Positions 2,788-45,085 of a stretch of DNA of 64,000 nucleotides are shown here, one piece after another. The stretch covers positions 49,251-113,250 of the IMG/VR virus record IMGVR_UViG_2718218135_000001. One strand, given 5' to 3'. Position numbers and translations under genes: made by a program. The stretch comes from a virus (taxonomy: Duplodnaviria; Heunggongvirae; Uroviricota; Caudoviricetes). Within the stretch, counting starts at the first letter, position 1; each line of letters starts with the position of its first letter. The notes under the pieces were generated by a model. The model searched no databases. It was not told the DNA's origin and was given only the letters and a program-made list of their open reading frames with translations.

Positions 2788-3620
2788 TGGCACAGATCGA
2801 CACGTACCGTAGCGGGGAAGCCGTTTCCCTGTCGTTTGCATTTAACGTTCTGGATATTGAGTCGGCAACGTATACCGTCAGAGATGGCGCGGGTTCGATC
2901 ATCGTTGATAACGAACCTCTCGATATTACTGAGGGGCAGATGTCCATTCCGGTTGTCGTGTCGGCCGAACACAACCTGCTTGCCGACAAAGAGCGCGATC
3001 TGCGTTACGTCCTCGTCAAAGCGGTGGCATCCGGTCTGACGCATGAAGAGCGCAAGATGTACGTTCTGCTAAATAGCTTCGAGCTGTCTATCCCAGGCCA
3101 GTCATTCGCAACGGTCGCAGACGCCCAGATGCAAGCCATCGACATGCTGAACGGCGACACTCTGTTGGCTGATGGTGACGGGCTGATGCGCAAACGTCTC
3201 ATTGAGGCCACCAGACGCGTCAAAACGCTGCCGTTTTCAATCCGCAAAGTCCTTCGTATCGATTTCGATCGGTACGACCGTCCACAAAACATGCTGAACG
3301 TATATGACGTACCGTGGGGTGCTGACGGGGCATATCGTCACGATCTGATTGATTGGGAGAAGATGACGCAGGATAAATTCGACGAATTCCCTGACTACTT
3401 CAAACAGACATTAATGCTGGCCGTGGTTAATGAAGCCTGCGAAATCGCTAACGGCAATGACGTAGCGGCAGCTCGCGAGGACGGCATCCTGTCTGAATCC
3501 ATTGGTGAAACGACAAATATGTACCGCACCGGCAAAGCGGCAAATTTACATGTGGCTCGCAGTACCTGGAGACTGCTGGTCAGCTACATCAACAACCGCA
3601 TGATTGTTCGCCGTGCGTAA
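2787..3620 (+). CDS. hypothetical structural protein
   Basis: 277-aa ORF, ATG overlaps upstream stop (TAATG); between capsid and tail genes. Confidence 0.35.
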   Translation: MAQIDTYRSGEAVSLSFAFNVLDIESATYTVRDGAGSIIVDNEPLDITEGQMSIPVVVSAEHNLLADKERDLRYVLVKAVASGLTHEERKMYVLLNSFELSIPGQSFATVADAQMQAIDMLNGDTLLADGDGLMRKRLIEATRRVKTLPFSIRKVLRIDFDRYDRPQNMLNVYDVPWGADGAYRHDLIDWEKMTQDKFDEFPDYFKQTLMLAVVNEACEIANGNDVAAAREDGILSESIGETTNMYRTGKAANLHVARSTWRLLVSYINNRMIVRRA

Positions 3621-21364: not shown

Positions 21365-21945
21365 TGGCATTCAGAATGAGTGAACAACCACGGACCATAA
21401 AAATTTATAATCTGCTGTCCGGAACTAATGAATTTATTGGTGAAGGTGATGCATATATTCCGCCTCATACAGGTCTGCCAGCAAACAGTACCGATATTGC
21501 ACCGCCAGATATTCCGGCAGGCTTCGTGGCTGTTTTCAACAGTGATGAGGCATCGTGGCATCTCGTTGAAGATCATCGGGGAAAAACCGTCTATGACGTG
21601 GCTTCCGGCGACGCGTTATTTATTTCTGAACTCGGTCCGTTACCGGAAAATGTTACCTGGTTATCACCGGATGGGGAATATCAGAAGTGGGACGGCACAT
21701 CCTGGGAGAAGGATGAGGAAACAGAAAAATTGTTTCAGGTACGGGAAGCGGAAGAAACAAAAAAAAGTCTGATGCAGGTAGCCAGCGAGCACATTGCGCC
21801 ACTTCAGGATGCTGTAGATTTGGAGATTGCAACGGAGGAAGAAGCATCGTTGCTGACTGCATGGAAGAAGTATAGAGTTTTATTGAACCGCATTGACACA
21901 TCAACGGCACCGGATATTGACTGGCCAACAATACCAGCAGAGTAA
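21364..21945 (+). CDS. tail fibre assembly protein (Tfa-like)
   Basis: 193-aa ORF translationally coupled (TAATG) to fibre gene; N-terminal region resembles Tfa-type chaperones. Confidence 0.55.
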
Positions 21946-24614: not shown

Positions 24615-24648
24615 ATACGACAATAATTCACGCAAAGGAAACTCACCA

Positions 24649-25314
24649 ATGACCAAGATCATTGTGGTTGGCGGCACAAAAGGCGGCCCAGGCAAATCTA
24701 CCGTTGCCCAGCAAATTGCGGTATGTCTCAAAGTTAAAAAGAAAAAGAAGGTTCACGTCACCGATATCGATATCCAGCGCACCACGACCAGCTGGTGTGA
24801 AGACCGTCGCCAGAACGAAGATCTTGAACTGATCCCGTTCGCTTATGTGCAGGACGACATCGTCAAACATCTTAAATCGCTTCAGGGGCGAACTGATTAT
24901 GTAGTGGTAGATGCTGGTGGCTTTGACTCCGAAATTCAGCGTCTGGCGATGCTTATGGCTGATGTAATCATCATCCCGCTGCGCCCTAAACGTCGTGATT
25001 TGAAATCTCTGCGTGATATCGACCCGATTATCGACAACGTTCGCAATGTGAACGAGAAAGTTAAGATCCGCGCGGTAATAAACCAGTGTCCGTCATTGCC
25101 TTCCCAGGTATCACGTATTCTGGCCGCGAAGGAAATTGTCGAAACTTTCGGCATCGAGGCTGCGCCGGTCAATCTGTACAACCGTAACGTTTATGACGAT
25201 GCGGAAGAGGCAGGTCGTTCTATCTTTGAAATGACTGGCGCTGAACGCGATAAGAAGGCAGAAGCCGAGTTCGAAGAGTTTGTAGATTACATCTTGAGTC
25301 TGGAGGAAGAATAA
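24649..25314 (+). CDS. ParA/ParF-type partition ATPase
   Basis: Deviant Walker A GGTKGGPGKST at N-terminus; 221 aa; followed by small basic protein. Confidence 0.7.
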   Translation: MTKIIVVGGTKGGPGKSTVAQQIAVCLKVKKKKKVHVTDIDIQRTTTSWCEDRRQNEDLELIPFAYVQDDIVKHLKSLQGRTDYVVVDAGGFDSEIQRLAMLMADVIIIPLRPKRRDLKSLRDIDPIIDNVRNVNEKVKIRAVINQCPSLPSQVSRILAAKEIVETFGIEAAPVNLYNRNVYDDAEEAGRSIFEMTGAERDKKAEAEFEEFVDYILSLEEE

Positions 25315-40787: not shown

Positions 40788-40939
40788 TGATTCCATACAT
40801 CATTTTATCATTCACTGGTGGCGTGGGCCTCGGCCTCGCAATCTGCCGCGCCCTGGTCCAGCAGGAACTGAAAACCAAAACACTTCGTGTCGGTAAGCGT
40901 GTGTATCGGGTTGTTCACGAGACGGGAGTGCGAAAATGA
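40787..40939 (+). CDS. small membrane protein (50 aa), paralog-like of 40412 ORF
   Basis: Starts ATGATTCCATAC; TM helix then RVYRVV motif; stop overlaps next start. Confidence 0.2.
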   Translation: MIPYIILSFTGGVGLGLAICRALVQQELKTKTLRVGKRVYRVVHETGVRK

Positions 40940-41241
40940 GCAATTTGACTTCCTTCGACTGGTGGCTGGCAACCTACCTTGTTGCGGCCGGCTTCGGATT
41001 TGCCTTTTACGTTGGTCAGTTAATCGTAAAGCTACTGCTGATAAGATTCGCCAGCGATAAACGCATAGACGACGGTCTGTGGCGTCTGGGGCCCCTGTTA
41101 GAGACGCATTACGGCGAACTCAAGGAAAACGAAACTATCACTATTCAAGCGAAGCGTTTTACCGCCATCATCACGAGAACTTCGGAACAAAAGGGGAGCC
41201 TGATCAAAAAGATAGCAACTAAACGCATCACAGATAGATAA
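40936..41241 (+). CDS. small membrane protein (101 aa)
   Basis: N-terminal TM helix (WWLATYLVAAGFGFAFYVGQLIV). Confidence 0.35.
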   Translation: MSNLTSFDWWLATYLVAAGFGFAFYVGQLIVKLLLIRFASDKRIDDGLWRLGPLLETHYGELKENETITIQAKRFTAIITRTSEQKGSLIKKIATKRITDR

Positions 41242-41258
41242 GTATTTACTTACCTATC
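41233..41258. promoter_or_regulatory. conserved intergenic motif A copy, extended palindrome (GATAGATAAGTATTTACTTACCTATC)
   Basis: 12-bp inverted arms with one mismatch; at the edge of the non-coding tRNA region. Confidence 0.5.
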
Positions 41259-41984
41259 TAATATGTATAAGATCACTTTGTTTTCGTTGAGATGCGACTG
41301 TTTGAACGTTAAATATAACTGCAAACGAAGATGCATACCTGGCAGTAGCCTAAGAAGCCAAACACCAGCGAGGTCAGTTTCCAGCCTCGTCACCAAAATG
41401 GGACACACTGAGCGAGTGTGATTGCAGAACGCAGAATAGGGCATATTGCACCATCCATGCCCTATTCAATGAAGTAACAGAATGGGCGGTTGGTTTCATC
41501 ATTCCATTCACCCATCCCGGTTTCAGCTGACCGTCCATTCTGTTACGTCATTTCCATTACTTATGTCGTTTATACTTGGGTTAAAAGCGGCGACGTAACC
41601 CGGCTGACTTGGTTAGTCAGCACATAACGTTGAGATCACTGATTTTTCTTAAAATCATACAGGCGATTCCACATAGCTGTAGCGACTGATCAATATGTTG
41701 GGTTGAACATTAATCGGTTCAGTGATCTCAACGTTGTGAAAGCAGGATTAATTAACCCTCTAGTGAAAACATTGTTGCCTTTATTGCCCCTGGCTTCACA
41801 ACATGTATGATTCCATACATCTAATAAGATCGAAGAATCTAACGGCAATCAACCACCGAGAAAGATTCCAGATCTTCGCTCATATGAGCGAGCCACATAC
41901 CTTGTCTGGCACTAACGTAAAGTGCAAGTTGCGGGAAAGTTTCTGGCTGCCTGGTTGTCCATAAGCTAGTACCGCCGCGAATAT

Positions 41985-42059
41985 GATGGTGTAGCTCAGT
42001 GGTAGAGCGGTTGACTGTTAATCAACTGGTCGGTGGTTCGAGTCCACCCACCATCGCCA
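41985..42059 (+). tRNA. tRNA-Asn (anticodon GTT)
   Basis: Cloverleaf by hand: acceptor GATGGTG/CACCATC, D-arm GCTC..GAGC, anticodon stem GTTGA/TCAAC with loop CTGTTAA, T-arm GGTGG-TTCGAGT-CCACC, discriminator G, CCA encoded; differs from E. coli tRNA-Asn as I recall it. Confidence 0.75.
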
Positions 42060-42213
42060 ACATAGCGCTGAACGGTTTGGATTCGCCACCACCGTCCGAA
42101 CGAAAGACTCCGCAAATGTCGCCAGACCGTTCAGCGCTGTGATAGACACGGCAGACGTTTTTTAACCATTGCTTCTAAGCATCGTAGCAACACTTTTTTC
42201 AGCGCAAAATCCA

Positions 42214-42235
42214 AAGGGGCTTCGGCCCCTTTTTG
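42214..42235 (+). terminator. rho-independent terminator
   Basis: AGGGGC-TTCG-GCCCCT followed by TTTTT. Confidence 0.6.
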
Positions 42236-42313
42236 CTATCAAGTCGCATATGCAACCAACTTTTTTTAGCTTATAGTTAAGTTCAGTAGTAGAATGCTAC
42301 GCTTCGTCGAGAA

Positions 42314-42829
42314 ATGACGATTATGGAGTCTATCGTGAAATTTAAAATCCAGCATTTGCAGGCAGCAGTGGCACTGGTTCTTGCCAGTATCCAGCCGCAA
42401 CCCAAAGCGGTTGCGTGTCAGCCTACGATTGTAGAACGGGTTTATGAGATGGGCGCTAGAGTCAACAAAACCGACATCAGTGATCTTACAGCTGCTCTCA
42501 ATGAATTGGCTAAAGAACTGCGTTCAAGCCGCGCTGAACTTGCTCGTTATGCTGACACTGACTTCTTTGCTGCTATCAAAGTAGCGGAAGAAATTAAGAA
42601 TCAAACTATTCATGTAGCCGGTATCGCAGAATCTTTTGTTTTGATGTTACCTGAAAAAGACGTCATCATGTCTTACGACAAAAACACTGTTGAGTTTGCG
42701 TTTTTTAAAGCTATTAAAATGGTCAGTATTGCGACCAAAAACTATCTCAATCTGATTGATCAGATTACACACACTTCTGTAGTGCGTGACTCTGGTGTCA
42801 ACCTTTTAGCCATGAACCATTCTAGCTGA
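42314..42829 (+). CDS. hypothetical protein
   Basis: 171-aa ORF after terminator; TAGAAT -10-like element upstream. Confidence 0.4.
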   Translation: MTIMESIVKFKIQHLQAAVALVLASIQPQPKAVACQPTIVERVYEMGARVNKTDISDLTAALNELAKELRSSRAELARYADTDFFAAIKVAEEIKNQTIHVAGIAESFVLMLPEKDVIMSYDKNTVEFAFFKAIKMVSIATKNYLNLIDQITHTSVVRDSGVNLLAMNHSS

Positions 42830-42997
42830 ACTTTAGCGATCGTCATCTTCTTCATCATTCTTTTTCTTCTAACAAATCATTCTCATCAATCTGGCTCAGA
42901 TGGCATTCCAAAGTTGGCGTTATTAGGCGCTTTTTACTATTTAGCGTTTAAGATGGTTTGTCTACATAATTTATTCAGAATTTACGTAAGCTATATA

Positions 42998-43030
42998 AAT
43001 GATTCCATACTTGTAAGGTATGGAATCATT
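42998..43030. repeat. perfect 13-bp inverted repeat (AATGATTCCATAC-N7-GTATGGAATCATT)
   Basis: Exact palindrome about 100 bp upstream of recombinase gene; ATGATTCCATAC core also at 40787 and 41807. Confidence 0.6.
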
Positions 43031-43128
43031 TTCAAAAACAGTCTATTTTACTGTTGATCATACAAAACTTAGGCCTAACATACTGTTTATAAATACAGTA
43101 AAAACAGGCTTCACTCAGTGAGTGGACT

Positions 43129-44232
43129 ATGAAAAACACTTTTGATAAAGCACGCGCAGCAGAAAACACCTCTAGAGAAGCCATCGAGTATCTCGAACGC
43201 GCTTCCGGTTTGTCAGCAGTGTCGACCACCAATTTCGACGGTGACATGTCGTTTTCTTCCGCATTCATGTTATTCACTCGCTTATCTTTGCTGATAACGA
43301 GACGTCGACCTGAAATAGCTGTTCATTGTATTTTGATACATGTAATGCCGCATATCTGTGAAGTAAAAGTAAGTGACATTAGTAGGGTTTTAGTCAACCA
43401 GCTGGTGAACCCATTAATACTTGAGGGCAAGATCGTCCAGGGCAGACGTGTGTTCTCGCTGATGAAGCAGTTTCTCAGTTGGTGTGCATTTCAGGGCTTA
43501 ATTGATACATCCCCATTGAACGATATGTCGCTTAACAGAGTAGCCGGTGGCGCGAAGCCCACGCCGCGCGAGCGCAAACTGACCGACGCAGAGGTCTGGG
43601 TCTTTTGGAATGTATGGGACTACTTCAACGTATGTGAGGGTACAAAGTGGGCGGCCAGATTATGCCTTGTAGCGGCCAGACGACCAGATGAAGTGCTCCG
43701 AGCTAAAAGATCAGAATTCAACCTCGAATATAATTTATGGAATCAAGGAACGAGGAATAAATCGGCTCGCCAGCACTCGTTACCATTAAGCCCGCTAATG
43801 CGCAAATGTGTTGAGGAGCTGATCAAATACGGAAAAGGCAGCCAGTGGCTTGTTCCTTCAAACAAGAAACAGGGTGAGGATGTGCCAATGTCTAAGGTGG
43901 CCATATCACAGGCGTTGAGAAGGATTTTAGAACGTCCAGAGTTGATGGAGCTTGAGCCATTTACTCCCCGAGATTTGCGTCGTACTGCGCGTAGTTACTT
44001 CCCCGCGTTAGGCATAAGTCAGGAGGTATCCCGCAAAATTATGAACCACAGTCTTGAGGGGATAGATCGAGTATACGATCGACACGATTATATAGACGAG
44101 ATGCGAGACGCCTTAAACAGTTTTTCGGCGTACATCGCATCAATCGTAGAGAAACAGGATTTAGAGGAGATAGATCATAAGTTCAAGGGAGATCGACTCG
44201 CTACTGAGCTAATCCGTGTAAATTTCTCATAG
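43129..44232 (+). CDS. tyrosine recombinase / integrase
   Basis: C-terminal catalytic region RDLRRTARSYF ... MNHSLEGIDRVYDRHDY (R..H..R..Y pattern). Confidence 0.65.
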   Translation: MKNTFDKARAAENTSREAIEYLERASGLSAVSTTNFDGDMSFSSAFMLFTRLSLLITRRRPEIAVHCILIHVMPHICEVKVSDISRVLVNQLVNPLILEGKIVQGRRVFSLMKQFLSWCAFQGLIDTSPLNDMSLNRVAGGAKPTPRERKLTDAEVWVFWNVWDYFNVCEGTKWAARLCLVAARRPDEVLRAKRSEFNLEYNLWNQGTRNKSARQHSLPLSPLMRKCVEELIKYGKGSQWLVPSNKKQGEDVPMSKVAISQALRRILERPELMELEPFTPRDLRRTARSYFPALGISQEVSRKIMNHSLEGIDRVYDRHDYIDEMRDALNSFSAYIASIVEKQDLEEIDHKFKGDRLATELIRVNFS

Positions 44233-44616
44233 CGACTTGATTGCCTCAACAACCCGCTCCGACGCACCACGTTGGTCACCGAAACGTCGACGGAAGGCTT
44301 CCAGAACTAGTTTTTCATCTTTAGTCAGAGGGGCTGTGCCTTCGTCGCGAAAAAACTCTAACAGCTCTGGATGACGCTCTTCCAGCACCATTAGCATCAA
44401 TCGGACCGAATCGGCATCCAATGCTTTAGCCAACGCTCTGACCTTGTCGATCGGAAGCGGGATTTTGCCGCTCTTGATAAGTGAAAGATTGTTAGGATTT
44501 TTATAGCCTGCTTCTTTCGCGATGGTCGCCTGGCTTTTCGGAGAAATCGCGATTAAAGCGTCAATGTAAGCAGCGTAGCGACCTACTTTAGCTTCTGTTA
44601 TTTCGTTGGTAGCCAT
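44227..44616 (-). CDS. HTH transcriptional regulator (candidate repressor)
   Basis: HTH-like QATIAKEAGYKNPNNLSLIKSGKIP; divergent from 45198 operon with motif B in the shared region. Confidence 0.45.
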   Translation of the reverse strand: MATNEITEAKVGRYAAYIDALIAISPKSQATIAKEAGYKNPNNLSLIKSGKIPLPIDKVRALAKALDADSVRLMLMVLEERHPELLEFFRDEGTAPLTKDEKLVLEAFRRRFGDQRGASERVVEAIKSL

Positions 44617-44872
44617 AATTATCAACCTGCGTGTTTTGATTTTATATGGTAAGTGCTTACTGATATTACATCAAAGGTTAGTGTTGTAAAGACTTATCTA
44701 TTTTTTTTCGTAGAGTTATTGACCGCAAAAGGCTTCATTAATAGACAACTATCTAAAAAACAACTCATTTAAGAACTTAAAACTAAGTTGTATTTGATAT
44801 ATAAGTATTCCGTATTGATACAATAGGTAGTAGTATTGCAAGGCATTTACGTGTTCAGTTGGATGATATGAA

Positions 44873-45085
44873 ATGAAAAAAATAACTTCTAATTTGATCG
44901 CCCTTGAGGTCGGACATACGGTTTCAATTGACGATGATGGGGCAGCAGCCATACTCACTGAACTGCCAACAAAGTCTTTGTTACTTGACATGAAAGACGC
45001 AACCGCATACATCTTTGAGCTAAAGGGCAAGTGCTTCACTCTCATCAATACCGGCTGCGGTTCAGTAGCCGTCCGCACTATTTAA
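44873..45085 (+). CDS. small hypothetical protein
   Basis: 70-aa ORF in AT-rich divergent region. Confidence 0.2.
   Translation: MKKITSNLIALEVGHTVSIDDDGAAAILTELPTKSLLLDMKDATAYIFELKGKCFTLINTGCGSVAVRTI

What the first reader, a model, noticed from the sequence alone, without database searches (positions are those of the whole stretch)
41240..42310. One-kb structured non-coding region with tRNA-Asn and multiple long inverted repeats
Besides the tRNA (41985-42059) this gene-free stretch contains several long perfect or near-perfect inverted repeats: GAATAGGGCAT/ATGCCCTATTC (about 41443-41476), GTAACAGAATGG/CCATTCTGTTAC (about 41474-41546), a 17-bp repeat AACGTTGAGATCACTGA separated by about 80 bp (41617-41731, GATC-rich), GCTCATATGAGC (about 41888), and AGCGCTGAACGG/CCGTTCAGCGCT flanking the tRNA 3' side (42063-42136). 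This density of dyad symmetry is typical of replication origins, recombinase attachment sites or structured ncRNAs.
Basis: seen in the sequence. Interest (0 to 1): 0.65.

Follow-up and report, generated by a model that had tools for sequence, protein, structure and literature searches.

The report
Phage tmRNA-like RNA beside tRNA-Asn
The "gene-free" kilobase is a promoter-to-terminator RNA operon of an SSU5-type phage-plasmid: a large folded RNA that carries a tmRNA-style peptide-tag template but no tRNA-like part, followed by tRNA-Asn; the RNA belongs to a widespread, unannotated phage family whose 5' end is complementary to the host's own ribosome-rescue RNA (tmRNA), so it may take over that system.

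Summary
The inverted repeats and the tRNA-Asn are real. The repeats are RNA helices on the + strand, not DNA dyads of an origin or an att site. Across 45 relatives, 97-99% of pair cells are paired, 15 pairs show compensatory changes, and there are 672 G.U cells against 14 A.C cells.

The unit has an operator-overlapped sigma-70 promoter (41239-41273), a transcription start near 41280, about 700 nt of structured RNA, tRNA-Asn (41985-42059), a further covarying hairpin, and terminators ending near 42234.

The first ~140 nt look like a tmRNA mRNA-like domain: a 10-codon frame with no start codon (41321-41353, ANEDAYLAVA*) and two downstream elements (one pseudoknot and one hairpin here; both are pseudoknots in the virulent-phage relatives). 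No tRNA-like domain was found in the window or in the rest of a 99.9%-identical plasmid.

The same module gives blastn matches in 749 phage records (147 near full length): Felix O1-like, ViI-like, N4-like and ~47 kb phages. It is also in 772 plasmids. It always sits among tRNA genes, is unannotated and is not in Rfam 15.

Its 5' 15-24 nt are antisense to host tmRNA nt 86/87-104, the resume-codon region (-14 to -21 kcal/mol; 0-26 of 2000 shuffles as good).

Best reading, inferred: a tmRNA-derived RNA that anneals to host tmRNA and substitutes its own tag template.

The parts
41239..41252 (.). Palindromic operator TAAGTAttTACTTA, overlapping the -35 hexamer
   Evidence: The motif TAAGTANNNACTTA (at most 1 mismatch) gives 22 strand matches in the window against 0.6 expected. 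The perfect copies sit at gene-unit boundaries such as 37628 and 47445. It is invariant in 45 relatives.
41245..41273 (+). Sigma-70-type promoter: -35 TTTACT (41245-41250), 17-nt spacer, -10 TAAGAT (41268-41273). The inferred transcription start is about 41280.
   Evidence: The hexamers are conserved (TAAGAT/TATGAT/TATAGT) while the spacer and discriminator vary between lineages. Unrelated phages place a consensus TTGACA-17-TATAGT/TAGATT/TAATCT promoter at the same distance before GTTTTCG. The simple scan did not list this promoter (8 of 12 matches, below its cut-off of 9), so the start site is an inference.
41280..41298 (+). 5' segment GUUUUCGUUGAGAUGCGAC, antisense to host tmRNA nt 86/87-104 (GUCGC-AAAC-GACGAAAAC, the resume-codon region)
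   Evidence: The duplex energy is -21.1 kcal/mol as 10 + 6 bp, and 0 of 2000 shuffles are as good. This is the best site on the whole ssrA RNA in 39 of 45 family representatives. Pairing with the host is better than with the RNA's own tag in 45 of 45. The ssrA target sequence was verified in 5426 of 5426 E. coli genomes.
41299..41320 (+). Short hairpin P1 (UGUUU/AAAUA) followed by AUAACU immediately before the resume codon
   Evidence: P1 takes the form CUUUG/CAAAG, AUUUU/AAAAU or UUAU/AUAA in other groups (read from the sequences). A-U/C-A at -6..-4 is conserved, as in E. coli ssrA AAUAGUC|GCA.
41321..41353 (+). tmRNA-type tag reading frame GCA AAC GAA GAT GCA TAC CTG GCA GTA GCC TAA = ANEDAYLAVA*, with no start codon
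   Evidence: An in-frame TGA lies 5 codons upstream. The spacing to the upstream motif differs by 0, 1 or 2 nt between lineages while the frame is kept. Among 121 loci fetched without reference to the tag, the frame is always 10 codons, all three stop codons are used, and there are many synonymous changes. Sub-threshold Rfam tmRNA-family hits fall only here, in every lineage tested.
41339..41368 (+). Helix-5-like hairpin holding the stop codon in its loop (CUGG/CCAG outer helix, UGGC/GCCA inner helix)
   Evidence: The inner helix is 99.4% paired with G-C to G.U changes. The outer helix covaries as CUGG/CCAG versus CUGA/UCAG between tag types (the register is shifted by 1, so this was read from the sequences).
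41368..41403 (+). H-type pseudoknot PKa: stem 1 is 41368-41374 with 41384-41390; stem 2 is 41379-41383 (UUCCA) with 41399-41403 (UGGGA)
   Evidence: Stem 1 variants are GCGAGG/CCUCGU, GCAAGG/CCUUGU, GUGAGG/CCUCAU and GCAGGG/CCCUGU. Stem 2 variants are UUCCA/UGGGA, CUCCA/UGGAG, CCGA/UCGG, CCAG/CUGG and CCAA/UUGG. Both stems are 100% paired within group A.
41404..41420 (+). Hairpin hp2 (CACAC-UGAGCGA-GUGUG). In the virulent-phage relatives it is the first stem of a second pseudoknot (PKc).
   Evidence: The stem varies as CACAC/GUGUG, CAGAC/GUCUG, CGCAC/GUGUG, CGCAU/AUGUG, CGUAC/GUAUG and CGCAG/CUGUG. In other groups the loop pairs downstream in at least 7 compensatory versions.
41425..41912 (+). 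Expansion domain specific to the phage-plasmids, closed by a long-range helix (41425-41431 with 41905-41910). It holds I6 (41434-41467), I1 (41468-41552), pseudoknot PKb (41563-41601), a hairpin with a conserved GGU loop (41603-41621), the long 'spacer' hairpin I2 (41623-41738), helix I5 (41733-41802), the invariant block AUGAUUCCAUACAU (41807-41820) and a GCUC-AUAU-GAGC hairpin (41878-41889).
   Evidence: Per-helix counts are. I6 has 5 pairs with both-side changes, I2 has 3, and the long-range helix has 1 (G-C to A-U in 11 sequences). I1 is 99.7% paired with G.U/G-C alternation. I5 is read from the alignment as 13-14 bp compensatory versions in three lineages. Natural variants lack I2 (L010, L089). 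Group C replaces I2/I5 with a ~70-aa ORF.
41909..41979 (+). Two 3' hairpins (41909-41925 and 41929-41979) just before the tRNA
   Evidence: Both covary: C-G to U-A and A-U to G-C in one, and U.G/G-C/A-U at a single pair in the other.
41985..42059 (+). tRNA-Asn (anticodon GUU), with the CCA encoded
   Evidence: ARAGORN and Rfam 76.2 bits. It lies 662-775 nt after the start of the RNA unit in the group-A relatives whose locus reaches that far.
42061..42141 (+). Post-tRNA 'spacer' hairpin I4
   Evidence: The arms are 20 nt and 90% complementary. A compensatory version, GCGUUGAGCGG/CCGCUCAACGC, occurs in other lineages. It has the same CACA..(C)G / (C)G..UGUG base as I2 and as the inter-tRNA hairpins of related phages, some of which contain a T-arm.
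42136..42234 (+). Terminator region: a hairpin with a U-tract at 42136-42163, and GGGGCUUCGGCCCC with a U-tract at 42213-42234
   Evidence: The first terminator was listed by the scan. The second was read from the sequence and is conserved in the relatives that keep this part.

Best explanation
Shown. The stretch is one + strand RNA operon of an SSU5-type phage-plasmid. It runs from an operator-controlled promoter through a ~700-nt highly structured RNA, tRNA-Asn and a structured hairpin to the terminators. The inverted repeats are the helices of that RNA.

Shown. The 5' ~140 nt belong to a large, unannotated family of enterobacterial-phage RNAs built like the mRNA-like half of tmRNA. The order of elements is: a 5' single-stranded segment, a small hairpin, AUA-N3, a 10-codon tag frame that starts at GCA without a start codon and ends in L-A/M/I-V/A-A plus a stop codon, the stop codon inside a hairpin, and then two pseudoknots. 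The family lacks any tRNA-like domain.

Shown in silico. The invariant 5' segment (GUUUUCG...GCGAC) is bipartitely complementary to host tmRNA nt 86/87-104, which contain the resume codon and codons 2-5.

Inferred. The RNA anneals to the single-stranded mRNA-like domain of alanyl-tmRNA-SmpB. This masks the host resume codon and places the phage's own AUA-N3-GCA next to host pseudoknot 1. Stalled ribosomes rescued through the host tRNA-like domain would then resume on the phage template and add the phage-specified tag instead of ANDENYALAA.

Inferred. The co-transcribed tRNA(s) and the long spacer hairpins are released by ordinary tRNA and RNase processing. The extra ~500 nt in phage-plasmids are a lineage-specific expansion of unknown role.
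For: RNA rather than DNA, and on the + strand:
- 97.3% of 5900 pair cells are paired, against 31-47% when partners are slid by 1-3 columns.
- 15 pairs have both-side changes, against 0-4 in the slid controls, and the covariation score is 0.124 against 0.026-0.042.
- Pairing is 98.7% on the + strand against 85.4% if read on the - strand, with 672 G.U cells against 14 A.C cells.

A transcription unit: the promoter and operator are conserved and so are the terminators.

A translated tag without a start codon:
- There are 14 haplotypes in group A. The last five codons show 4 synonymous sites and no non-synonymous change.
- An independent sample of 121 loci always has 10 codons, uses TAA, TAG and TGA as stops, has Ala codons GCA/GCC/GCG/GCT, and ends in LAVA, LMAA, LAAA or LIAA.
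- Upstream indels leave the frame intact.

tmRNA relationship: the only Rfam signals are sub-threshold tmRNA-family hits, and they fall on the tag in each of the lineages scanned. The pseudoknots are supported by many compensatory variants.

No tRNA-like domain: ARAGORN, Rfam and a T-arm + NCCA scan found none in the window, in the rest of plasmid pLAO4 or in the related loci scanned.

Antisense to host tmRNA:
- Energies are -14 to -21 kcal/mol, and 0-26 of 2000 shuffles are as good.
- The target is the best site on ssrA in 39 of 45 representatives.
- The 5' end is the best-pairing part of the module in 45 of 45.
- Mean energy is -18.0 kcal/mol with the host against -9.4 with the RNA's own tag, and the host is better in 45 of 45.
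- GTTTTCG is present in 119 of 122 and GCGAC in 112 of 122 independently fetched loci, even though the linker between them varies from 2 to 11 nt.
- The target sequence was verified in all 5426 E. coli genomes.

Breadth: blastn matches in 749 phage records, 147 covering at least 80% of the 185-nt query; 772 plasmids; 248 of 5426 complete E. coli genomes.
Against: - There is no expression, processing or interaction data. The transcription start is inferred.
- The annealing and template-swap steps are entirely inferred. A base-paired MLD replacement has no precedent, and frame setting by SmpB on a bimolecular complex is unproven.
- The phage tags still look like degradation tags (..MAA, ..AAA, ..AVA), so the benefit of swapping tags is unclear.
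- The family members are homologous, so the repeated 'best site' results are not independent tests.
- The complementarity amounts to 7-10 + 5-6 bp.
- From memory and untested here, the Salmonella tmRNA tag is ANDETYALAA. That would put one mismatch in the GUUUUCG pairing, although many carriers infect Salmonella.
- The GUUUUCG motif also resembles the tmRNA D-loop-region motif (GAUUCGAC). It could therefore be a relic or an SmpB-binding element rather than an antisense seed.
- The function of the large phage-plasmid-specific 3' domain is unexplained.
Confidence: 0.5

Rival explanations
1. Pure antisense inhibitor ('anti-tmRNA'). The RNA pairs with the host tmRNA resume region only to block trans-translation or tagging during phage growth. 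Its own tag-like frame is not translated and is kept for mimicry or folding.
For: The same complementarity data apply. A phage RNA that interferes with host tmRNA has a precedent in the CDS-less tmRNA of phage DS6A, reported to inhibit endogenous tmRNA (PMC11915505).
Against: The frame behaves like a translated ORF. It has a fixed length of 10 codons, interchangeable TAA/TAG/TGA stops and synonymous third-position changes, with variable codons 3-5 and a conserved hydrophobic C-terminus. An inhibitor would not need about 120 nt of conserved pseudoknots after the seed.
Confidence: 0.15
2. A self-sufficient, unconventional tmRNA. The tRNA function would be supplied by an unrecognised domain or by a co-transcribed partner: the adjacent tRNA, one of the T-arm-containing 'spacer hairpins', or an odd tRNA-like gene. 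This would make it a new kind of two-piece tmRNA.
For: The module always lies inside tRNA arrays. Some spacer hairpins contain canonical T-arms (L199, L217, L285). The Felix O1-like phage heid has an 82-nt tRNA-like element with G3.U70, A73 and CCA directly after the module (L284:1665-1746).
Against: No common partner exists. The neighbouring tRNAs differ: Asn in SSU5-like elements; Ser, Arg and Met in the ~47 kb phages; none in group C. The G3.U70 element was found in only one of the fetched loci. A 5' extension on a complete tRNA would be removed by RNase P (established knowledge). Nothing in the rest of plasmid pLAO4 qualifies. No conserved complementarity to a partner was found.
Confidence: 0.15
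3. A structured leader and processing scaffold of a phage tRNA operon. The helices serve only as RNase III, RNase P or RNase E punctuation and for stability, and the tag-like frame is an evolutionary relic of a captured ssrA fragment.
For: The RNA is co-transcribed with tRNAs. The repeated long hairpins share a CACAAC/GUUGUG base between RNAs. I2 is dispensable in some natural variants.
Against: A relic would not keep a 10-codon frame, a stop codon and pseudoknots across at least six phage groups that share little else. Group C has the RNA without any downstream tRNA.
Confidence: 0.1
4. A DNA-level element: a lytic replication origin or an attachment site for the integrase at 43129.
For: The dyad symmetry is dense. 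The region lies inside the replication-gene module: helicase, primase, ligase and polymerase are nearby. A tyrosine integrase lies 1 kb downstream. The region borders a cargo hotspot that holds the caf1 operon in Y. pestis pMT1.
Against: The changes are strand-asymmetric and G.U-compatible, which is meaningless for duplex DNA. There are no DnaA boxes, iterons or GATC enrichment. The 3' end of the tRNA is not repeated. The integrase is absent from most relatives that keep the repeats. The same RNA module occurs in virulent phages with quite different replication systems.
Confidence: 0.03

Closest known systems
tmRNA (SsrA; Rfam RF00023, clan CL00001), the one-piece bacterial form
   Same: Both have a tag frame without a start codon that begins GCA AAC GA. 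Both encode a 10-residue tag of the form AN(D/E)xx(Y/F)-hydrophobic-A. Both have A-U-A at -6..-4, a stop codon in a hairpin, and H-type pseudoknots after the frame.
   Different: This RNA has no acceptor stem, T-arm or CCA, so it cannot be alanylated. It has a small hairpin in place of pseudoknot 1. It has its own promoter directly before the D-loop-like GUUUUCG. Its 5' end is antisense to the host tmRNA. It scores far below the Rfam thresholds (15-20 bits against 47-84).
Two-piece (circularly permuted) tmRNAs of alpha- and beta-proteobacteria and cyanobacteria (RF01849-51, RF04321)
   Same: The idea that the coding part and the tRNA-like part can be separate RNAs held together by base pairing. 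The weak Rfam hits are to these models.
   Different: In those RNAs both pieces come from one gene, the coding piece carries the 5' acceptor strand, and the pieces pair through the acceptor stem and helix 2. Here no acceptor piece is encoded, and the proposed pairing is with the mRNA-like domain of the host's tmRNA.
Phage-encoded tmRNAs: cluster C mycobacteriophages, huge phages, and the CDS-less tmRNA of phage DS6A (PMC11915505)
   Same: They are phage genes that act on trans-translation and usually lie in tRNA clusters. The DS6A RNA interferes with host tmRNA.
   Different: Those RNAs keep the tRNA-like domain, and DS6A lacks the tag. This family is the converse: the tag and pseudoknots are kept and the tRNA-like domain is lost.
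GOLLD and ROOL large ornate RNAs of phages and prophages
   Same: They are large, highly structured non-coding RNAs of phages that often lie next to tRNA genes and have unknown function. The ~700-nt phage-plasmid version is of similar size.
   Different: There is no Rfam match to either. GOLLD and ROOL have no tag-like frame, as far as I know.
Trans-acting antisense sRNAs and prophage 'anti-sRNAs' of enterobacteria
   Same: A short seed at the 5' end is complementary to a single-stranded region of a host RNA.
   Different: The target would be tmRNA rather than an mRNA or an sRNA. The effector also carries a translatable template and pseudoknots.

Membership tests
tmRNA (SsrA) | tRNA-like domain: a 7-bp acceptor stem with G3.U70, a T-arm and a 3' NCCA | tested here: not met
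   ARAGORN finds no tmRNA, even at relaxed thresholds that return only junk. Rfam gives no hit in 41400-41984. The T-arm + NCCA scan of the window and the rest of pLAO4 finds only tRNA-Asn. None was found in the ~70 related loci scanned.
tmRNA (SsrA) | Tag reading frame with no start codon, a GCA resume codon and a hydrophobic ..A-A-type end, under coding selection | tested here: met
   The frame is at 41321-41353. It is always 10 codons, all three stop codons are used, and there are synonymous changes. Indels just upstream do not disturb the frame.
tmRNA (SsrA) | Frame-setting nucleotides upstream of the resume codon (U85, A86 in E. coli) | tested here: met
   The sequence is AUAACU|GCA here, AUAAAU|GCA in other groups and ACAAGU|GCA in one lineage, against AAUAGUC|GCA in ssrA. 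The function of these nucleotides is not testable here.
tmRNA (SsrA) | Stop codon in helix 5, and pseudoknots around the frame | tested here: met
   The helix-5-like hairpin and the downstream pseudoknots PKa and PKc have many compensatory variants. There is no pseudoknot upstream of the frame, only a hairpin.
tmRNA (SsrA) | Score above the Rfam gathering threshold for a tmRNA family | tested here: not met
   Scores are 14.7-19.9 bits against thresholds of 47-84.
tmRNA (SsrA) | Alanylation, SmpB and EF-Tu binding | not testable with these tools
   These require biochemistry.
Two-piece tmRNA | A separate acceptor piece encoded with the coding piece, and a 5' acceptor strand on the coding piece | tested here: not met
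   No acceptor piece exists in the window or in the rest of pLAO4. The transcript starts at GUUUUCG directly after the promoter.
Trans-acting antisense RNA that targets host tmRNA (proposed) | Conserved, statistically unusual complementarity to an accessible region of the target | tested here: met
   That the tmRNA mRNA-like domain is single-stranded comes from established knowledge.
Trans-acting antisense RNA that targets host tmRNA (proposed) | Physical interaction and a functional consequence | not testable with these tools
   This requires RIL-seq or CLASH, genetics or proteomics.
GOLLD / ROOL | Match to the covariance models | tested here: not met
   There is no hit at E <= 10.
Replication origin | Initiator boxes or iterons, an AT-rich unwinding element, Dam-site clustering | tested here: not met
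   There are no DnaA boxes (at most 1 mismatch allowed), GATC is not enriched or conserved, and the only low-GC spot is at the promoter. The direct-repeat scan gave only two short two-copy families. repA lies elsewhere on pLAO4. Origin activity itself is not testable here.
tRNA-linked integrase attachment site | A duplicated copy of the tRNA 3' segment flanking an island that carries the integrase | tested here: not met
   No repeat of 12 nt or more of the tRNA 3' end exists in the window. The cargo insert relative to SSU5 is bounded only by CCGTCCG, inside hairpin I4.
tRNA-Asn | Cloverleaf with a GUU anticodon | tested here: met
   

The most novel reading that the evidence does not exclude
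A new class of phage RNA hijacks the host ribosome-rescue system in trans. It is a tmRNA derivative that has lost its tRNA-like domain. It base-pairs with the resume-codon region of the host's charged tmRNA and supplies a replacement template, so that stalled ribosomes in infected or lysogenic cells add a phage-chosen tag. It is present in Felix O1-like, ViI-like, N4-like and ~47 kb phages and in SSU5/pHCM2/pMT1-type phage-plasmids of E. coli, Salmonella, Klebsiella and Yersinia.
Probability: 0.35. Interest if true: 0.95.

Novelty: new variant of a known kind. Interest (0 to 1): 0.85.

Why it matters
tmRNA has been thought to work only as one molecule, or as two pieces from one gene, that combine a tRNA part and an mRNA part. 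A widespread phage RNA that keeps only the mRNA part and is complementary to the host tmRNA would be a new way for viruses to reprogram translation quality control. It would also give a direct handle on a long-standing question: why many phages need or manipulate trans-translation.

The idea is directly testable in standard E. coli phage collections and in clinically common plasmids. These include pHCM2 of S. Typhi, the K. pneumoniae phage-plasmids and relatives of Y. pestis pMT1.

Two practical consequences follow:
- An RNA family with blastn matches in 749 phage records and 772 plasmids is missing from Rfam and from genome annotation.
- The 'unusual gene-free region' next to the tRNAs of ViI-like phages, noted in PMC3184105, probably corresponds to this locus. 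That link is inferred, because the module was located in a related Kuttervirus and not in CBA120 itself.

Tried and rejected
- Origin of replication: no DnaA boxes, iterons or GATC enrichment.
- Att site: no tRNA 3' repeat, and the integrase is not conserved with the element.
- Hidden protein gene: the small ORFs in the region are not conserved; only the start-less 10-codon frame is.
- Permuted or two-piece tmRNA with an acceptor piece inside the upstream ORF 40936-41241: that ORF varies like a protein gene, with amino-acid substitutions in Buttiauxella and Kluyvera copies, and it has no T-arm or CCA.
- The ARAGORN 'tRNA-Lys' at 24637-24717 as a possible acceptor piece: it lies inside a ParA-like P-loop gene and is not supported by Rfam.
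- Internal 'CACCA' at 41390-41394 as an acceptor end: it reads CACCG in most lineages.
- The RNAalifold long-range pairs between the leader and the tRNA acceptor strands: they are invariant 4-6-mers, expected by chance, and incompatible with the cloverleaf.
- A closing helix between the 5' region and the 3' hairpin or I4: the covariation is internal to those hairpins.
- Overall sequence homology to E. coli ssrA: only the tag and a PK3-like stretch reach p of about 0.04.
- Global duplex folding of the 705-nt RNA against ssrA: uninformative.
- Y. pestis sRNA-seq sRNAs sR082 and sR083 on pMT1: they map elsewhere on the plasmid.
- Genome-collection scan: it returned only two more close relatives, from Buttiauxella and Kluyvera.
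- Literature: ten full-text searches found no description of this RNA or of its tags.
- G3.U70 tRNA-like partner: found only in one Felix O1-like phage.
Full report
**What the window is.** The region matches Salmonella phage SSU5 at 90.9%. It matches 773 plasmids of Escherichia, Klebsiella, Enterobacter, Yersinia (pMT1), Salmonella (pHCM2) and others, nearly all non-mobilizable IncFIB phage-plasmids, with E. coli plasmid pLAO4 at 99.9%. In SSU5 and its relatives the stretch lies in the replication-gene module. It sits after the ligase cluster and a small membrane-protein ORF mislabelled 'C-type natriuretic protein', and before cargo genes and the cobT/cobS-like genes. No protein gene is annotated in it anywhere. 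NCBI's PGAP annotates only tRNA-Asn.

**Checking the observation.** The tRNA-Asn (41985-42059) is confirmed. The 705-nt stretch 41280-41984 folds far better than shuffled sequence (z = -6.3). The claimed GATC richness is not real: 6 sites against 4.3 +/- 1.9, and the sites are poorly conserved.

**DNA dyads or RNA helices.** I aligned 45 non-identical relatives at 71-99.9% identity, drawn from plasmid, phage and viral-contig collections.
- On a curated structure of 132 pairs, 97.3% of cells are paired, against 31-47% when partners are slid by 1-3 columns.
- 15 pairs carry changes on both sides, against 0-4 in the slid controls.
- Examples are I6 (GAAUAGGGCAU/AUGCCCUAUUC against GGAGGGAACAU/AUGUUCCCUCC), I2, the GGU-loop hairpin, the post-tRNA hairpin I4 and helix I5, which exists as three different 13-14 bp versions.
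- One-sided changes are almost all G-C to G.U. There are 672 G.U cells against 14 A.C cells, so the pairs work on the + strand (98.7%) and not on the - strand (85.4%).

This asymmetry means nothing for duplex DNA. The element is therefore an RNA transcribed left to right, in the same direction as the tRNA.

**The transcription unit.** Directly after the upstream stop codon lies the palindrome TAAGTAttTACTTA. The motif TAAGTANNNACTTA (at most 1 mismatch) gives 22 strand matches in the window against 0.6 expected, and the perfect copies sit at gene-unit boundaries. It overlaps a -35 TTTACT, which is followed after 17 nt by a -10 TAAGAT. The hexamers are conserved while the sequence around them varies. 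Unrelated phages that carry the same RNA have consensus TTGACA-17-TATAGT-type promoters at the same distance. This puts the start at about 41280, the G of an invariant GUUUUCG. The simple scan did not list this promoter because it scores 8 of 12, so the start site is an inference. The unit ends with a hairpin/U-tract at 42136-42163 and a strong GGGGCUUCGGCCCC-U5 terminator at 42213-42234.

**What the RNA is.** Positions 41321-41353 read GCA AAC GAA GAT GCA TAC CTG GCA GTA GCC TAA, which translates as ANEDAYLAVA*. The E. coli tmRNA tag frame is GCA AAC GAC GAA AAC TAC GCT TTA GCA GCT TAA (ANDENYALAA), a sequence I verified in 5426 of 5426 E. coli genomes.
- The frame has no start codon. An in-frame TGA lies five codons upstream, and the three main lineages differ by 0, 1 and 2 nt just upstream without disturbing the frame.
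- Among SSU5-like elements the tag varies at codons 3-5 (ANEEV-, ANEDT-, ANDNQ-, ANEDA-, ANEDS-YLAVA). The last five codons show four synonymous sites and no replacement.
- A-U-A at -6..-4 matches the frame-setting U85/A86 region of ssrA.
- The stop codon sits in a hairpin, as in tmRNA helix 5.
- The frame is followed by an H-type pseudoknot (PKa) and a second hairpin/pseudoknot (hp2/PKc).
- The only Rfam signals anywhere in the RNA are sub-threshold hits of tmRNA families on the tag, and this recurred in each of the lineages scanned.

**A large family.**
- A scan for the tag pattern, followed by a second scan with a motif outside the tag, brought in two further groups. One is another phage-plasmid lineage (group C). 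The other is a large set of ~47 kb phages (group B).
- In the second, tag-independent sample (121 loci) the frame is always exactly 10 codons: ANDDVVLMAA, ANEEMYLAVA, ANDEQFLAVA, ANDDLMLMAA, ANDNTFLAVA, ANEERFLMAA and others. It ends in TAA, TAG or TGA and uses all four Ala codons at the last position. This is the signature of a translated frame.
- A 185-nt query from group B gives blastn matches in 749 phage records, 147 of them near full length.
- I inspected Felixounavirus, Kuttervirus (ViI-like), N4-like Gamaleyavirus and Kolesnikvirus members. In each the module lies inside the tRNA gene region, is unannotated or covered by dubious small 'hypothetical proteins', and in the Felixounavirus and Kolesnikvirus members a consensus promoter can be read directly upstream.
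[quoted passage not shown] Its identity with this locus is my inference from the related Kuttervirus.
- Across the family the pseudoknots are supported by many independent compensatory versions. PKa stem 1 has at least 4, PKa stem 2 at least 5, the PKc stem 6 and PKc stem 2 at least 7.
- The minimal RNA is about 190 nt. The SSU5-type version is expanded to about 345 nt of conserved core plus about 360 nt of lineage-variable hairpins. These include long 'spacer' hairpins (I2, I4) of a type that separates tRNAs in related phages and that sometimes contains a T-arm.

**What is missing.** A tmRNA needs a tRNA-like domain. None is detectable.
- ARAGORN finds none at any useful threshold.
- Rfam finds nothing outside the tag.
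- A direct scan for a T-arm followed by 7 nt and NCCA finds only tRNA-Asn in the window and nothing in the remaining 48 kb of the near-identical plasmid pLAO4.
- None of the ~70 related loci scanned has one.
- The transcript begins where the D-loop-region motif of tmRNA would be, so the 5' acceptor strand is absent.
- The neighbouring tRNAs differ between groups (Asn; Ser/Arg/Met; none in group C), so no common tRNA partner exists.
- An 82-nt tRNA-like element with G3.U70, A73 and CCA follows the module in one Felix O1-like phage only.

**The clue to mechanism.** The invariant 5' end, GUUUUCG followed by a 2-11-nt linker and GCGAC, is complementary in the correct antiparallel order to host tmRNA CGAAAAC (nt 98-104, tag codons 3-5) and GUCGC (nt 87-91, the last three leader bases and the start of the resume codon). 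Several lineages add a GUU opposite AAC.
- In the window the duplex is 10 + 6 bp at -21.1 kcal/mol. Across eight diverse representatives, 0-26 of 2000 shuffles do as well.
- This is the best site on the whole 363-nt ssrA for 39 of 45 representatives.
- The 5' end is the best-pairing part of the module in 45 of 45.
- The segment pairs much better with the host frame than with the RNA's own (mean -18.0 against -9.4 kcal/mol; better in 45 of 45). Its own codons 3-5 vary freely without any compensating change in GUUUUCG.
- In the independently fetched sample, GTTTTCG is present in 119 of 122 loci and GCGAC in 112 of 122.

**Proposed mechanism (inferred).** The phage RNA anneals to the single-stranded mRNA-like domain of host tmRNA. 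The duplex end nearest host pseudoknot 1 is where the phage RNA continues into its small hairpin, AUA-N3 and GCA. The phage resume codon therefore replaces the masked host one. After the host tRNA-like domain and SmpB have entered a stalled ribosome, translation resumes on the phage frame. This reading accounts together for the missing tRNA-like domain, the clear coding selection on a start-less frame, the invariant 5' motif, the tmRNA-like pseudoknots and the restriction to phages of enterobacteria, whose tmRNA tag regions are alike.

**Weak points.**
- There are no experimental data, and such a bimolecular template swap has no precedent.
- The phage tags still resemble degradation tags, so the benefit of a swap is unclear.
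- The family members are homologous, so repeated results are not independent tests.
- From memory and untested, the Salmonella tmRNA carries ACC at codon 5, which would give one mismatch.

**Rivals.** They are weighed in the rival section. The DNA-level readings are effectively excluded.

**Novelty.** The RNA is not in Rfam 15. It is not annotated in RefSeq or GenBank records. Ten full-text searches, including searches for the tag peptides themselves, found no description of it. The 2025 update of the tmRNA database describes tag-less phage and plastid forms but nothing lacking the tRNA-like domain. I file it as a new variant of a known kind: tmRNA-derived, but not a member of the tmRNA family, because the defining tRNA-like domain was tested for and not found. 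If the hijack mechanism holds, it would be a new kind of virus-host RNA interaction.

Noticed in passing
window 21707-21905 (+): A full-length Rfam match to the RNA family IS009 (RF02111): 189.6 bits against a gathering score of 117. It lies on this phage-plasmid, well away from the finding.
   Followed up: no
window 4921, 11426, 18240, 22002, 26744, 37628, 41239, 47445 and other sites: The palindrome TAAGTA-NN(N)-TACTTA recurs: 22 strand matches against 0.6 expected. The perfect copies lie at gene-unit boundaries. It is probably the operator or promoter motif of a phage-plasmid regulator that controls many units, including the RNA operon.
   Followed up: partly
window 24637-24717 (-): ARAGORN calls an 81-nt 'tRNA-Lys(ttt)' here. 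It lies inside the N-terminus of a ParA-like P-loop gene and is not supported by Rfam, so it is probably a false positive.
   Followed up: partly
window 42100-45068: Relative to phage SSU5, the window carries a ~3 kb cargo insert. It holds a 171-aa ORF, a tyrosine integrase at 43129-44232 and a 132-aa ORF on the opposite strand. Its junctions share CCGTCCG, and the left junction lies inside the loop of hairpin I4. Other relatives carry different cargo at this spot: YafO toxin-antitoxin, AbiH, a Hin invertase, phoH.
   Followed up: partly
L005 (Y. pestis pMT1) 3001-3524, equivalent to window about 41242-41742: In Y. pestis pMT1 the RNA is cut off at about window position 41742 by the caf1R-caf1M-caf1A (F1 capsule) locus. 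The plague capsule operon therefore sits in this cargo hotspot and has removed the 3' domain and tRNA-Asn, while the tmRNA-like core is kept at about 92% identity.
   Followed up: partly
L141 and L151 (group C contigs), about 270-480 nt after the tag: A related phage-plasmid lineage replaces the I2/I5 hairpins with a ~70-aa ORF (MQDVDELKHAAATLF...) that has a Shine-Dalgarno sequence. The ORF lies between the GGU-loop hairpin and the invariant AAUGAUUCCAUACAUC block, and no tRNA follows.
   Followed up: no
L284 (Escherichia phage heid) 1665-1746: An 82-nt tRNA-like element directly after the tmRNA-like module. It has a CGGGGCG/CGCCUCG acceptor stem with G3.U70, A73, CCA, a good T-arm and a UCU 'anticodon' loop, but almost no D-arm. 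ARAGORN does not call it, and an annotated HNH endonuclease CDS overlaps its 3' part.
   Followed up: partly
L199:~590-670, L217:~590-680, L285:~2300-2385; window I2 (41623-41738) and I4 (42061-42141): The long 'spacer' hairpins with a CACAAC.../...GUUGUG base that separate RNAs in these operons sometimes enclose a canonical T-arm (GGGUUCGAAUCCC) and a second hairpin, so they look like tRNA-derived structures without a free CCA end. They may be processing signals or mobile modules.
   Followed up: partly
L010 (K. pneumoniae plasmid) and L089: Natural variants have deleted hairpin I2 by recombination between its two CAACGTTG copies. L010 also has a premature stop in the tag (ANDN*), which suggests a decaying copy.
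   Followed up: no
window 40936-41241 (+): The upstream 101-aa ORF is annotated in many records as 'C-type natriuretic protein'. It has no Pfam match and its N-terminal segment reads as hydrophobic by eye. The name looks like an annotation artefact.
   Followed up: partly
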